From IMG/VR virus record IMGVR_UViG_3300020421_002402, positions 46,194-110,193 of that record: a stretch of 64,000 nt of DNA, one strand, 5' to 3'. Each line of letters opens with the position of its first letter. The stretch's first letter is position 1. The translations under genes were made by a program, and so were the position numbers. The notes beneath the pieces are model-generated. The model worked only from the letters and a program-made list of their open reading frames with translations. It was not told where the DNA came from and did no database searches. Positions 37,195-40,211 of the stretch are shown here, one piece after another. The stretch is from a virus.

Positions 37195-37223
37195 GAAGCA
37201 CTCTCCGGAGTGCTTCTTTTTTT
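37195..37223 (+). terminator. Intrinsic terminator
   Basis: GAAGCACTC/GAGTGCTTC followed by T7. Confidence 0.88.
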
Positions 37224-37227
37224 ATGG

Positions 37228-37256
37228 TTGACAACTATACTGTATTTGTGTATAAT
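37228..37256 (+). promoter_or_regulatory. sigma70-type promoter, leaderless
   Basis: TTGACA-17-TATAAT-6nt-ATG (37263). Confidence 0.75.
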
Positions 37257-37262
37257 ATACCT

Positions 37263-37454
37263 ATGAAACATCTAATTAAGTGGATGAAAATATCTGCATT
37301 TATTAATTTTTACCTATGTGTAATTATGACTTTAGTATTGATTGCATTAATGGTAGATATTGGATTAGACAGTTATTGGCATGGTAATGATTTTAAAACA
37401 AAACTACTTAATGAAGTAGAACAAATTGAATGCACGACAACAGGAAATTGCTAG
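37263..37454 (+). CDS. Small membrane protein
   Basis: One TM segment. Start set by promoter position. Confidence 0.6.
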   Translation: MKHLIKWMKISAFINFYLCVIMTLVLIALMVDIGLDSYWHGNDFKTKLLNEVEQIECTTTGNC

Positions 37455-37792
37455 TCAATAAAACAATCAATGAGTATGTACGTTCTGTACAAATTCAATT
37501 AGCAACAGTAATTGGTTTACATTGTTTAATTATTGGATACTTTTTTCCAATGTTTTTAGTAACAATTACTTTTGTTCCAGCAACCTTTTATATACTTTGG
37601 TGTTACATAGCATTAATTTATGAAGTAGAAGGCACTAATAGAGATAACTTAATCGCTTTAATAAATGCTTCGGAACATGAACCTACACGAAAACTTCTAT
37701 TGCAAGAGTTATGGTATGCTGACCTACATAGTTTGGGTGGCGTTACAGAAGATACAATAGACATGGCGACCTATGCCAATACACGAATATAG
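37430..37792 (+). CDS. Two-TM membrane protein
   Basis: Hydrophobic N-terminal half. Confidence 0.6.
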   Translation: MHDNRKLLVNKTINEYVRSVQIQLATVIGLHCLIIGYFFPMFLVTITFVPATFYILWCYIALIYEVEGTNRDNLIALINASEHEPTRKLLLQELWYADLHSLGGVTEDTIDMATYANTRI

Positions 37793-37864
37793 AATATAAA
37801 CAGTTATAAAGATAAATATTAGTGTTATATAGCAGATGGCTTATAACTTAAATCAGGAGAAGAT

Positions 37865-38146
37865 ATGAATAAACTTTATTCACTTCTTGCAATCCTTGGT
37901 TTAGTTTTCTTACCTTCATGTGCCTCAGTTGGAGCAGTTATAGAAGGTGGTAAAGATTTCACAACAGGTGTAATTGATGGATCTGTTAATGCGGTTGGAG
38001 GTATTACCCAAGCCGCTTTACAAGATGTATCTAGCATTACGGCAACGGCGGCAGAGGCGGCTGGTGGTGTAGTTGAAACTGTTCGTAGTGAAATTGATGA
38101 ACAAACCGATGAATTACAAGATACCACTCCGGAAAAAAAGGACTAA
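37865..38146 (+). CDS. Lipoprotein, short (zero-frame) form
   Basis: AGGAG SD, signal II with lipobox LPSC, amphipathic Ala/Gly/Thr helices. Confidence 0.8.
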   Translation: MNKLYSLLAILGLVFLPSCASVGAVIEGGKDFTTGVIDGSVNAVGGITQAALQDVSSITATAAEAAGGVVETVRSEIDEQTDELQDTTPEKKD

Positions 38147-38238
38147 GCCATTCACAACAGAATGGCATAGATGGTGATATAAAACTTTTGATTAAAGAAT
38201 TAAAAAGATATTGTAAAGCCAATCCTAAGGAGTGCTAA
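38134..38238 (+). other. Programmed -1 frameshift signal and 32-aa extension
   Basis: In-phase A_AAA_AAG, 6-nt spacer, GCCATTC/GAATGGC hairpin. The -1 frame is open to TAA 38236-38238. Confidence 0.7.
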
Positions 38239-38262: not shown

Positions 38263-38294
38263 AAAAAAGGGGGTCTAGTAAGGCCCCTTTTTTT
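38263..38294 (+). terminator. Intrinsic (bidirectional-type) terminator
   Basis: A6-GGGGGTCT/AGGCCCC-T7. Confidence 0.8.
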
Positions 38295-38355
38295 ATGGAC
38301 ATCTAGATAAATACTGCTATAATAGATTGTCTATTATGATTATGTAGGAGTAATT

Positions 38356-39147
38356 ATGGGATGGTTAGCAGACTGTTCTGAGTCCGAACGTGCGGCAGTT
38401 TTAGCCAAGTTGGCGGGCAGAGCATATCTCAGTGAGCAAGAGTTAAAAGACGCTCAAAATCAAATAAAAATGAAACGTAAGAAAGCAGTTCTTGTTAAGT
38501 CTGGCGATGCTGAAGCATGGGTATTCTTTACAAGAGATGATGGTATTATTATTTCATGCAGAGGCACTGAACCTACTAAGTTTAGTGATATACTAGCAGA
38601 CCTTAAAACATATCCAGTAAGACATCCACGTAATGGTAGAGTACACAGAGGGTTTTATGATTACACTATGTTAGTGTTTCCTGAAATCTTAAAAACAGTA
38701 CAAGCAAACAGAAAGAAAGATGAAAACGTTTTTGTCGTTGGTCACAGTTTAGGTGGAGCAATGGCAGTTTTAGTAGCAGAGGCATTAACACACGAAGGTA
38801 TTCCAGTGAAGGAACTTAGAACCTACGGGCAACCAAGAGTTGGAAATAGACAGTTCCGTCAGCACCTAGAAGGTTGCGATATCGGTGCATACGTTCGTTA
38901 TGTTAATAACAATGACATAGTTCCTAAAGTACCACCTAGTTGGTTAATGTTTGTACATGGTGGTAAACTGATGTATATAAACCATTTTGGAAATATAAGG
39001 ATATTAAGTTTTTGGCAAAGGTTCAAAGACCAATGGAGAGGTTTTATATCTGCATTTAAAAGTTTCCAATTCTTTGATTTCGTATCGGATCATGGCATGC
39101 CTAAGTACATAAAGTACACTAGCAAGTTAGAACAAAACGATAAATAG
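38356..39147 (+). CDS. Class 3 lipase
   Basis: CRGT, VHRGF, GHSLGGA, TYGQPRVG, NDIVP, DH. Confidence 0.92.
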   Translation: MGWLADCSESERAAVLAKLAGRAYLSEQELKDAQNQIKMKRKKAVLVKSGDAEAWVFFTRDDGIIISCRGTEPTKFSDILADLKTYPVRHPRNGRVHRGFYDYTMLVFPEILKTVQANRKKDENVFVVGHSLGGAMAVLVAEALTHEGIPVKELRTYGQPRVGNRQFRQHLEGCDIGAYVRYVNNNDIVPKVPPSWLMFVHGGKLMYINHFGNIRILSFWQRFKDQWRGFISAFKSFQFFDFVSDHGMPKYIKYTSKLEQNDK

Positions 39148-39776: not shown

Positions 39777-40211
39777 ATGAAGTTAGCAGAACTTTTAGAA
39801 GCAGTAAAGCGAACTCGACTTAACGCAAACGCCGGTGGCGGCGGAGGCGGCGGTGGTGCTGGCGGCGGTGGAGCCGGCGGTGGCGGTGCTGGAGCAGGTG
39901 GCTCAGGTGGAGCAGGCGCAGGAAGTTCTGGAGGAGGCAGTGGTGCTACTGGTTCCGCAGGTAACGGTTCAAGCACATCAGGTTCTAGTGGAGACAGCGG
40001 CGGTTCTGCAGACTCTGGTGCTAGTGATAGCAGTAGTGATTCGTCCGCTGATTCCACACCATCACAAAGTGGAACAGGTGTAGGGTTAGGATATTTTGTA
40101 CCATTCGGTAGCAGACCTTACAAAAAGAAAAAGAAAAAGAAGAAAAAGAAAACATCAAACACTGGTGCTCCTAAGGCGCCAAAAGGTGATCCATATAAAG
40201 ACCATCGATAG
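39777..40211 (+). CDS. Gly/Ser-rich protein with poly-Lys tract
   Basis: MKLAELLE, then poly-Gly, Ser/Asp and K10 blocks. Locally GC-rich. Confidence 0.65.
   Translation: MKLAELLEAVKRTRLNANAGGGGGGGGAGGGGAGGGGAGAGGSGGAGAGSSGGGSGATGSAGNGSSTSGSSGDSGGSADSGASDSSSDSSADSTPSQSGTGVGLGYFVPFGSRPYKKKKKKKKKKTSNTGAPKAPKGDPYKDHR

What the first reader, a model, noticed from the sequence alone, without database searches (positions are those of the whole stretch)
37865..38238. Programmed -1 frameshift producing two forms of a phage lipoprotein
Seen: the lipoprotein ORF (lipobox LPSC) ends CCG GAA AAA AAG GAC TAA. The heptamer A_AAA_AAG (38134-38140) is in the correct phase. After exactly 6 nt comes a 7-bp hairpin GCCATTC-ACAACA-GAATGGC, extendable by CTA/TAG. 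The -1 frame has no ATG of its own but reads GLSHSQQNGIDGDIKLLIKELKRYCKANPKEC-stop (32 aa) and ends just before the terminator at 38263. Known: A_AAA_AAG plus a hairpin 5-9 nt downstream is the classic bacterial signal (dnaX, IS3 family). Phage frameshifts are mostly described in tail chaperone and capsid genes. Inference: a fixed ratio of 93-aa and 124-aa lipoproteins is made, the long form adding an amphipathic helix and a Cys pair in the periplasm.
Basis: partly seen in the sequence, partly recalled or inferred. Interest (0 to 1): 0.85.

Follow-up and report, generated by a model that had tools for sequence, protein, structure and literature searches.

The report
Conserved frameshift in phage lipoprotein gene
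A small lipoprotein gene found in many uncultured marine phages ends in a conserved ribosome-slippage signal that should yield two versions of the protein, the longer one carrying an extra helix closed by a two-cysteine loop; this is a well-supported new example of a known recoding trick in a kind of gene where it had not been described.

Summary

- **Sample:** 250 related loci from viral and marine metagenome contigs gave 117 distinct gene ends.
- **Co-occurrence:** 96 ends have an in-phase A_AAA_AAG or G_GGA_AAG heptamer in the 0/-1 overlap and a -1-frame extension with two cysteines seven apart. 19 ends have neither. Two are exceptions.
- **No fused form:** no in-frame fusion was found.
- **Shift site pinned:** in 28 distinct sequences a -1-frame stop lies directly before the heptamer, so the usable overlap is only 7 nt.
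- **Synonymous codons bent to keep the heptamer:** the last Lys is AAG in all cases against 16% elsewhere, and a preceding Pro is always CCA against 27% elsewhere.
- **Selection:** the extension is under purifying selection only in the -1 frame (pN/pS 0.41, against 1.0 and 1.7 in the other frames).
- **Hairpin:** a hairpin starts 5-8 nt after the heptamer in 51 of 66 distinct sequences, with different stem sequences in different clades.

The mechanism is canonical, like dnaX and lambda G/GT. The gene family is new: a lipoprotein built of 11-residue repeats, carried by T4-like and jumbo marine phages. Its function is unknown, and there is no experimental proof yet.

The parts
37228..37256 (+). 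Sigma-70-type promoter (TTGACA, 17 nt, TATAAT; 12 of 12 matches), preceded by a terminator at 37195-37216. Likely start of the transcription unit that ends with the lipoprotein gene. The first ATG follows at 37263 with no leader.
37263..37454 (+). Small protein with one transmembrane segment (63 aa from the ATG at 37263; the mechanical ORF starts at 37224). Homologs lie upstream of the lipoprotein gene in many related loci.
37430..37792 (+). 120-aa protein with two predicted transmembrane segments, no family match. Conserved next to the lipoprotein gene in a subset of loci.
37855..37859 (+). Shine-Dalgarno sequence AGGAG, 5 nt before the ATG of the lipoprotein gene.
   Evidence: read directly
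37865..38146 (+). Zero-frame lipoprotein ORF, 93 aa. It has a signal peptide with lipobox L-P-S-C (Cys19 codon at 37919-37921), six 11-residue repeats (residues 21-86) and an acidic, Lys-rich tail.
38134..38140 (+). Slippery heptamer A_AAA_AAG in X_XXY_YYZ phase (Lys91 in the P site, Lys92 in the A site).
38144..38146 (+). Zero-frame stop TAA, one codon after the heptamer. It ends the 93-aa short form.
38143..38170 (+). Frameshift-stimulating hairpin: core 7-bp stem 38147-38153 with 38160-38166, loop 38154-38159, outer 3 bp 38143-38145 with 38168-38170. The core stem starts 6 nt after the heptamer.
38140..38238 (+). -1-frame extension: 32 codons plus TAA. It consists of a variable linker (which encodes the hairpin), an amphipathic helix with the D-I-K-x-L-I motif, and the C-terminal Y-C-x2-N-P-x2-C loop. 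The long form is 124 aa.
38263..38294 (+). Intrinsic terminator hairpin with a U run, 25 nt after the -1-frame stop.

Best explanation
The lipoprotein mRNA carries a programmed -1 ribosomal frameshift site.

**How it would work.** Lys-tRNAs sit on AAA (P site) and AAG (A site) of A_AAA_AAG. The hairpin 6 nt downstream, at the mRNA entry channel, holds the ribosome back. A fraction of ribosomes slip one base back and re-pair with AAA AAA.

- Ribosomes that do not slip read GAC and stop, which gives the 93-aa short form.
- Ribosomes that slip read 32 more codons in the -1 frame, which gives the 124-aa long form. It has the same lipid-anchor signal and the same body of 11-residue repeats, plus a linker, an amphipathic helix and a two-cysteine C-terminal loop.

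**Shown by comparison:** the signal and the -1 peptide are conserved and under selection.

**Inferred:** that slippage really occurs, its efficiency, lipidation and envelope location, a disulfide between the two cysteines, and the biological role. My best guess for the role is an early, envelope-directed function such as superinfection exclusion or envelope remodelling, in which the ratio of short to long chains matters.
For: 1. **Co-occurrence.** Among 117 distinct 3' ends from 250 loci, 95 have both an in-phase canonical heptamer in the 0/-1 overlap and the -1-frame C-x2-x-P-x2-C motif. One more (L242) has G_GGA_AAG, a hairpin and a divergent -1 ORF with the same cysteine spacing. 19 have neither. 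The motif is never in the zero frame.
2. **Two heptamers.** A_AAA_AAG occurs in 82 distinct ends and G_GGA_AAG in 12. The latter is the lambda G/GT heptamer (my own knowledge) and has no long homopolymer run.
3. **Site pinned.** In 28 distinct sequences a -1-frame TGA lies directly 5' of the heptamer. The 0/-1 overlap is then 7 nt, so the shift can only occur on the heptamer.
4. **Synonymous codon choice serves the heptamer**.
   - The last Lys is AAG in all cases, against 59 of 362 (16%) for Lys codons elsewhere in these genes and 5 of 95 at an invariant Lys.
   - A directly preceding Pro is CCA in 49 of 49, against 30 of 110 elsewhere.
   - Glu before G_GGA_AAG is GAG in 12 of 12, against 20% elsewhere.
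5. **Purifying selection in the -1 frame only.** Over the 22-codon core, pN/pS is 0.41 (pS 0.80, saturated), against 1.04 and 1.67 in the other two frames. Column variability peaks at codon position 3.
6. **No conserved start.** The position that is Met in some clades is Leu, Val, Ile or Phe in others, and the conserved D-I-K lies upstream of it.
7. **Hairpins.** Over 66 distinct 45-nt downstream segments the median z is -3.06 and 71% have z below -2. The first stem starts 5-8 nt after the heptamer in 51 of 66. Stem sequences differ between clades. Within one subclade 98.7% of cells are paired, against 38-53% when the partner is slid, and two pairs change in a compensatory way.
8. **Loss together.** L021/L024 have no extension and read AAA CAG instead of AAA AAG. 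They are sister to the frameshifting L026/L027, with 99% SH-aLRT support on the joint clade.
9. **No fused form.** Profile searches found no fused long proteins, only gene-caller fragments of the -1 ORF.
Against: - No protein, ribosome-profiling or reporter data exist. Everything here is comparative.
- **Two exceptions.** L105 has the imperfect G_GAA_AAG. L169 has the motif in the +1 frame and a broken heptamer; it differs from its relative L123 by a 1-nt deletion, which may be an assembly error or decay.
- In two clades (L063, L123) the stable hairpin lies about 23-25 nt after the heptamer, outside the usual spacing.
- No Shine-Dalgarno-like stimulator stands upstream (read directly).
- The host is unknown and the window carries no tRNA genes. 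The shiftiness of A_AAA_AAG depends on the host's Lys-tRNA set.
- The heptamer alone occurs at chance frequency in the window.
Confidence: 0.88

Rival explanations
1. The downstream -1-frame ORF is a separate small gene, translated by its own initiation or by termination-reinitiation after the lipoprotein stop. It is not fused to the lipoprotein.
For: Some clades have an in-frame ATG 10-20 codons before the Cys loop, for example the Met in D-I-K-M-L-I and the Met-Met just before the Tyr-Cys in the L029 clade. A GGAGG-like stretch lies nearby in the L065 clade. Gene callers sometimes call such fragments.
Against: - That position is Leu, Val, Ile or Phe in other clades, and conserved residues lie upstream of it.
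- The ORF is in the -1 frame in 97 of 98 cases, always with a slippery heptamer at the overlap.
- A peptide of about 20 aa with two cysteines and no signal peptide would stay in the reducing cytoplasm.
- This reading does not explain the codon bias that preserves the heptamer.
Confidence: 0.04
2. The long form arises by transcriptional slippage: RNA polymerase drops or adds an A in the A run, rather than the ribosome slipping.
For: The window has seven A in a row and many relatives have six. Slippage on A runs is a known way to fuse frames, for example dnaX of Thermus (PMC3711429).
Against: - Twelve distinct sequences in at least two clades use G_GGA_AAG, with only three A and three G.
- The runs are shorter than the 8-9 or more usually needed (PMC3711429).
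- The strict X_XXY_YYZ phase, the fixed AAG as last codon and a hairpin at 5-8 nt are features of ribosomal slippage, not polymerase slippage.
Confidence: 0.05
3. The split is an artefact or a recent mutation: a homopolymer sequencing error or indel in what is really one continuous ORF, or a decaying gene.
For: The site is a homopolymer run, and metagenome assemblies do carry such errors. One relative (L169) does look like an indel variant.
Against: The same frame arrangement occurs in 96 of 98 distinct extension-bearing sequences from independent samples and assemblers, including the non-homopolymer G_GGA_AAG. There is no continuous ORF among 117 distinct ends or in the protein databases. The -1 ORF is under purifying selection.
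Confidence: 0.01

Closest known systems
E. coli dnaX tau/gamma -1 frameshift
   Same: The same heptamer A_AAA_AAG, a downstream stem-loop a few nucleotides after it, and two products from one gene that share their N-terminal part (PMC3711429).
   Different: - In dnaX the shifted ribosome stops almost at once, so the frameshift product is the shorter protein. Here the frameshift product is the longer one.
- dnaX also has an upstream Shine-Dalgarno-like stimulator, which is absent here.
- The gene product is unrelated.
Phage lambda G/GT tail assembly chaperone frameshift
   Same: A phage gene with a -1 shift near the 3' end of the upstream ORF that adds a C-terminal extension. G_GGA_AAG is the lambda heptamer (my own knowledge) and is used by 12 distinct members here. 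The arrangement is conserved although the sequences diverge.
   Different: Lambda G/GT has no strong downstream structure and yields a tail-assembly chaperone. Here there is a hairpin at 5-8 nt, the product is an envelope-type lipoprotein, and the extension is only 31-71 aa.
IS3-family (IS911, IS150) orfA-orfB -1 frameshift
   Same: A_AAA_AAG with a downstream stem-loop, fusing two overlapping frames.
   Different: The IS3 family fuses two large domains of a transposase and often has an SD-like upstream stimulator. The overlaps are longer, and orfB can have its own start.
Capsid frameshifts in phage T7 gene 10A/10B and phage A2
   Same: Phage genes that make a minor C-terminally extended isoform by a -1 shift close to the stop codon (the A2 reference is listed in PMC10885494).
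   Different: Those are virion structural proteins with other slippery sites. This one is a non-structural, membrane-targeted protein.
Small helical lipoproteins and 11-residue-repeat amphipathic proteins (Braun's lipoprotein Lpp, apolipoprotein- or LEA-type 11-mers)
   Same: An N-terminal lipobox cysteine followed by about 65 residues predicted as one long helix. The hydrophobic period is 3.67 residues, which gives six 11-residue repeats.
   Different: No sequence match to any Pfam, NCBIfam or PDB entry. Lpp is a heptad-based trimer. This is resemblance only; membership is not supported.

Membership tests
Canonical bacterial/phage -1 programmed ribosomal frameshift site | Slippery heptamer X_XXY_YYZ in the zero-frame phase, lying inside the overlap of the two frames | tested here: met
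   A_AAA_AAG at 38134-38140 is in phase. 96 of 98 distinct extension-bearing relatives have A_AAA_AAG or G_GGA_AAG in phase, and in 28 of them the overlap is exactly 7 nt.
Canonical bacterial/phage -1 programmed ribosomal frameshift site | Stable RNA structure beginning about 5-9 nt 3' of the heptamer | tested here: met
   In the window the spacer is 6 nt, the energy -12.6 kcal/mol and z -3.9. The spacer is 5-8 nt in 51 of 66 distinct relatives, with median z -3.06. Two clades have only a distal hairpin.
Canonical bacterial/phage -1 programmed ribosomal frameshift site | A -1-frame ORF without its own conserved start, under purifying selection as protein | tested here: met
   pN/pS is 0.41 in the -1 frame, against 1.04 and 1.67 in the other frames. 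There is no conserved start codon, and Y, C, P and C are invariant.
Canonical bacterial/phage -1 programmed ribosomal frameshift site | The signal is conserved across diverged homologs and lost together with the extension | tested here: met
   None of the 19 relatives without an extension has an in-phase heptamer. The sister pair L021 (no frameshift) and L026 (frameshift) shows this directly. Synonymous codon bias maintains the heptamer.
Canonical bacterial/phage -1 programmed ribosomal frameshift site | Two protein products demonstrated, dependent on the heptamer and the structure | not testable with these tools
   This needs expression, a reporter assay or proteomics.
dnaX-type site specifically | Upstream Shine-Dalgarno-like stimulator about 10 nt 5' of the heptamer | tested here: not met
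   No GGAGG-like element stands in the 20 nt before the heptamer in the window or in the main clades (read directly). It works like dnaX but is not a dnaX-type three-element site.
Bacterial lipoprotein (Lgt/LspA substrate) | Signal peptide ending in a lipobox [LVI][ASTVI][GAS]C | tested here: inconclusive
   The basic N-terminus, the hydrophobic core and the invariant Cys fit. The commonest box, L-P-S-C (73 of 107), has an atypical Pro at position -2. Other members have classical boxes such as F-V-G-C and I-T-S-C. The residue at +2 is always Ala. No dedicated predictor was available.
Spanin (outer-membrane lipoprotein subunit of phage lysis) | An adjacent or embedded partner gene for an inner-membrane subunit with a long periplasmic coiled coil, in a lysis cassette | tested here: not met
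   The upstream genes encode short proteins with one or two transmembrane segments and no long periplasmic domain. No endolysin is nearby. The unit has a sigma-70 (early-type) promoter, and the gene's position varies between phages. No PHROG spanin match was found.

The most novel reading that the evidence does not exclude
The frameshift sets the mixing ratio of two chains of an envelope-anchored, 11-residue-repeat lipoprotein. The minority long chain carries a disulfide-closed C-terminal knob that docks onto a host envelope component or a phage membrane partner. The module is an early, fast-diversifying superinfection-exclusion or envelope-remodelling device shared by T4-like and jumbo marine phages. 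If so, it would be the first recoding event known to control a phage-encoded envelope protein rather than a virion, replication or transposition protein.
Probability: 0.3. Interest if true: 0.75.

Novelty: new member of a known kind. Interest (0 to 1): 0.62.

Why it matters
Conserved, well-supported frameshift sites in bacteria and phages are few. They are concentrated in tail chaperones, capsid genes, dnaX and insertion sequences. This one adds a new gene family, a secreted lipoprotein, with unusually clean comparative evidence.

- Two interchangeable heptamers occur in the family.
- A 7-nt overlap pins the shift site.
- Synonymous codons are bent to keep the heptamer.
- The hairpin is kept in place while its sequence turns over.
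- The signal is lost when the extension is lost.

The family also matters for annotation. Gene callers report only the 93-aa form, or spurious -1 fragments, in hundreds of marine phage contigs. Because there are many natural variants of heptamer, spacer, stop position and hairpin, the family is a ready-made series for studying how these elements tune frameshift efficiency. It also flags an abundant marine-phage envelope protein of unknown function as worth study.

Tried and rejected
- **Cultured-phage records (INPHARED).** No DNA or protein match to the lipoprotein from three clades, so no isolate is available as a model.
- **Family and structure searches.** Pfam, PHROGs, NCBIfam, PDB sequence search and ESM Atlas gave no credible family for the lipoprotein, the extension or the two upstream membrane proteins. 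There was only a weak PHROG 16352 hit and a sub-threshold Atlas lead to DUF6726.
- **Rfam.** Nothing near threshold at the site.
- **Fused in-frame forms.** None among the 120 best protein hits; the longer ones are N-terminal mis-starts or frameshifted reads. The profile search of longer proteins found none either, which is weak evidence. A first attempt failed because the query was too short.
- **Cys-pair partner idea.** The window's upstream 76-aa protein ends in its own Cys pair, which might partner the extension. I rejected this because its homologs lack that tail.
- **Homotrimer prediction for the mature lipoprotein.** No verdict (after two busy refusals). It is not used as evidence either way.
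- **AlphaFold2 monomer of the lipoprotein.** Low confidence (pLDDT 55). It is used only to say 'one long helix'.
- **Tree.** The careful tree search did not finish. The quick tree was used, and many forks are unresolved.

Full report
**1. The observation**

- ORF 37865-38146 encodes 93 aa. It has a Shine-Dalgarno AGGAG 5 nt before the ATG and a signal peptide ending L-P-S-C (Cys19).
- The gene ends CCG GAA AAA AAG GAC TAA, so A_AAA_AAG (38134-38140) is in X_XXY_YYZ phase.
- Six nucleotides later a 7-bp hairpin begins (38147-38153 pairing with 38160-38166, 6-nt loop, three further outer pairs). Its energy is -12.6 kcal/mol, z = -3.9, and 1 of 200 shuffles folds as well.
- The -1 frame has no ATG. 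It is open from 9 codons before the site and runs 32 codons past it to TAA at 38236-38238. The products would be 93 and 124 aa.
- A strong terminator follows at 38263-38294.

On its own this would be weak evidence. The heptamer occurs 38 times in the window against 36.4 expected by chance.

**2. Relatives**

The window lies in a 110-kb virus record estimated to be about 31% complete. Homologs of the lipoprotein occur on contigs of up to 344 kb.

- Four scans of viral contigs and one of marine metagenome contigs gave 250 loci.
- After removing identical 3' regions, 117 distinct gene ends remain.
- The gene sits in different neighbourhoods: beside a T4-type DNA polymerase (48% identical to those of cyanomyophages), beside a 300-aa or a 421-aa conserved phage protein, or in the jumbo-phage context of the window.
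- No cultured phage in the INPHARED set has it.

**3. The comparative test**

*Co-occurrence.* Of the 117 distinct ends:

- 95 have both an in-phase canonical heptamer inside the 0/-1 overlap and a -1-frame ORF ending in the motif Y-C-x2-[NFY]-P-x2-C.
- One more (L242) has G_GGA_AAG, a hairpin 8 nt downstream and a divergent -1 ORF with the same cysteine spacing.
- 19 have neither. In these the stop is followed directly by a terminator or by the next gene.
- The motif is never in the zero frame.

*Heptamers.* A_AAA_AAG occurs in 82 distinct ends. In 59 of them one sense codon precedes the stop, and in 23 the stop follows directly. G_GGA_AAG occurs in 12 and is always followed directly by the stop. 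From my own knowledge, G_GGA_AAG is the heptamer of the lambda G/GT frameshift. It has no long homopolymer, which argues against polymerase slippage and against sequencing error.

*Site pinned.* In 28 distinct sequences a -1-frame TGA lies immediately 5' of the heptamer. The two frames then overlap by only 7 nt, so a shift anywhere else is impossible.

*Codon choice*.

| Position | At the heptamer | Elsewhere in these genes |
|---|---|---|
| Last Lys codon is AAG | all cases | 59 of 362 (16%); 5 of 95 at an invariant Lys |
| Pro directly before the heptamer is CCA | 49 of 49 | 30 of 110 |
| Glu before G_GGA_AAG is GAG | 12 of 12 | 20% |

With synonymous sites otherwise saturated (pS 0.80), this shows selection on the nucleotide sequence of the heptamer itself.

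*Selection on the -1 peptide.* Over the 22 codons ending at the second Cys, pN/pS is 0.41 in the -1 frame, against 1.04 and 1.67 in the other two frames. Variability is highest at codon position 3.

- Y, C, P and C are invariant, and a D-I-K-x-L-[IV] helix start is widely conserved.
- The extension is 31-71 aa long (median 37). It always has exactly two cysteines, seven residues apart (97 of 97).
- There is no conserved start codon. The position that is Met in some clades is Leu, Val, Ile or Phe in others.

*Hairpin.*

- Over 66 distinct 45-nt segments after the heptamer, the median z-score against dinucleotide shuffles is -3.06 and 71% have z below -2. The first stem starts 5-8 nt downstream in 51 of 66.
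- The stems differ between clades. Examples are GCCAUUC/GAAUGGC in the window's clade, CUUCAUC/GAUGAAG with G_GGA_AAG, CCCCUG/CAGGGG in L114, and a longer interrupted helix in the clade where the stop follows the heptamer.
- In one subclade aligned without gaps, 98.7% of cells pair, against 38-53% when the 3' partner is slid. Two pairs change in a compensatory way: A-U to G-C and C-G to U-A. This within-clade covariation is modest; the turnover of stems between clades is the stronger signal.
- The peptide encoded by the hairpin region (the linker) is the least conserved part of the extension. That is expected if RNA structure rather than protein is selected there.

*Loss together.* On a quick maximum-likelihood tree with many unresolved forks, frameshifting members fill most of the family. 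Non-frameshifting members form at least two or three groups. L021/L024 have no extension and read AAA CAG in place of AAA AAG. They group with frameshifting L026/L027 in a clade with 99% SH-aLRT support.

*No fused form.* Profile searches found no longer protein carrying the motif. They found only short gene-caller fragments of the -1 ORF, some started from spurious upstream codons.

**4. Exceptions and weaknesses**

- L105 has G_GAA_AAG, where only the A-site tRNA can re-pair. Its sister L114 has the perfect heptamer.
- L169 has the motif in the +1 frame and a broken heptamer. Compared with L123 it lacks one base just after the stop, so it may be an assembly error or a decaying copy.
- The L063 and L123 clades have their stable hairpin about 23-25 nt downstream. 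In both, the stop codon directly follows the heptamer.
- There is no upstream SD-like stimulator.
- The host and its Lys-tRNA set are unknown, and the window has no tRNA genes.
- No expression data could be obtained.

**5. What the protein is**

- No family in Pfam, PHROGs, NCBIfam or the PDB matches. The protein atlas finds only viral clusters of the same family.
- The residues after the lipid-anchor Cys (C-A-S-V-G-A-V-I-E-G-G-K) and the D-x-Q-T-D-E-L-Q block near the C-terminus are nearly invariant.
- AlphaFold2 gives one long helix at low confidence (pLDDT 55).
- The hydrophobicity profile of the alignment has a sharp period of 3.67 residues, which means six 11-residue repeats. It has no 3.5-residue signal, and none of 1000 shuffles reaches the observed power. 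Such 11/3 helices are typical of lipid-surface-binding proteins and of straight or right-handed coiled coils (my own knowledge).
- The extension is modelled confidently (pLDDT 84, above 90 over residues 11-32). It is a helix running through the first Cys, followed by an N-P turn that leads to the terminal Cys. That fits a short disulfide-closed loop if the protein is exported.
- The +2 residue is always Ala. By the E. coli sorting rule (my own knowledge) this would send the protein to the outer membrane. The common L-P-S-C box has an atypical Pro, so lipidation is likely but not shown.

**6. Context**

- A perfect sigma-70-type promoter (37228-37256) follows a terminator. It precedes, without a leader, a 63-aa protein with one transmembrane segment, then a 120-aa protein with two, then the lipoprotein gene and its terminator.
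- Homologs of the two membrane proteins precede the lipoprotein gene in several clades but not all.
- Against its closest relative L017, the flanks, the signal peptide, the first 35 residues, the extension and the terminator are nearly identical in DNA. The middle repeats are heavily diverged (73% protein identity overall), whereas neighbouring genes are 87-97% identical. This is a local diversification hotspot.
- An early-type promoter, membrane partners and fast diversification fit an envelope-directed function such as superinfection exclusion better than lysis. The spanin features are not met. This reading is inference.

**7. Comparison with what is known, and verdict**

The mechanism matches canonical -1 frameshifting. 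It has the heptamer and hairpin of dnaX and IS3 (PMC3711429) and the heptamer and 3'-end extension logic of lambda G/GT. It lacks the dnaX upstream stimulator.

Literature searches found no report of a frameshift in a phage lipoprotein. The PRFect paper lists tail chaperones, capsids, lysins, polymerases, transposases and others, but no lipoprotein (PMC10885494).

I therefore rate this a new member of a known kind. My confidence that the frameshift is real is 0.88. The function of the two isoforms is open.

Noticed in passing
window 37865-38143 compared with L017:3001-3276 (alignment A6): Mosaic divergence. The promoter region, signal peptide, first 35 residues, -1 extension and terminator are nearly identical in DNA to the closest relative. 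The central 11-residue repeats are heavily diverged, and flanking genes are 87-97% identical. This looks like a diversification or recombination hotspot inside the gene.
   Followed up: partly
window 37228-37263: A perfect sigma-70 promoter (12 of 12) ends 6 nt before the ATG at 37263, with no Shine-Dalgarno sequence, just after a terminator at 37195-37216. The mechanical ORF start at 37224 is probably wrong, and the small membrane protein is likely translated from a leaderless mRNA.
   Followed up: partly
window 37811-37818: GATAAATA, one mismatch from the T4 late-promoter consensus TATAAATA, lies about 47 nt before the lipoprotein ATG and is conserved in L017. The gene may also have a late promoter of its own.
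   Followed up: no
L169:~300-520 (IMGVR_UViG_3300012936_003521): The only relative whose Cys-loop extension lies in the +1 frame, with AAG AAG in place of AAA AAG. It has a one-base deletion after the stop relative to L123. It may be an assembly error, a decaying copy or a different recoding event.
   Followed up: partly
L242:~400-560: G_GGA_AAG followed directly by the stop, with a hairpin 8 nt downstream and a -1 ORF of unrelated sequence that still has two cysteines seven apart. It may be a replaced or very divergent extension module.
   Followed up: no
L167, L170, L123, L139 and proteins P0125-P0148: A clade with much longer extensions (about 55-71 aa) in which the helix before the Cys loop is lengthened by Leu/Lys-rich repeats. 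Gene callers have deposited many fragments of these -1 ORFs as separate 'proteins'.
   Followed up: partly
window 39777-40211: A 144-aa ORF made almost entirely of Gly/Ser/Ala runs followed by ten consecutive Lys codons, with a long Pro-rich ORF on the opposite strand. Conserved at 70% in L017. Function unknown.
   Followed up: no
window 38296-38323 and 38356-39147: A second strong promoter (11 of 12, with an extended -10 TG) directly after the lipoprotein terminator drives a class 3 lipase gene (Pfam Lipase_3, E = 2e-25). Its distant relatives are in cyanophages and other jumbo phages.
   Followed up: partly
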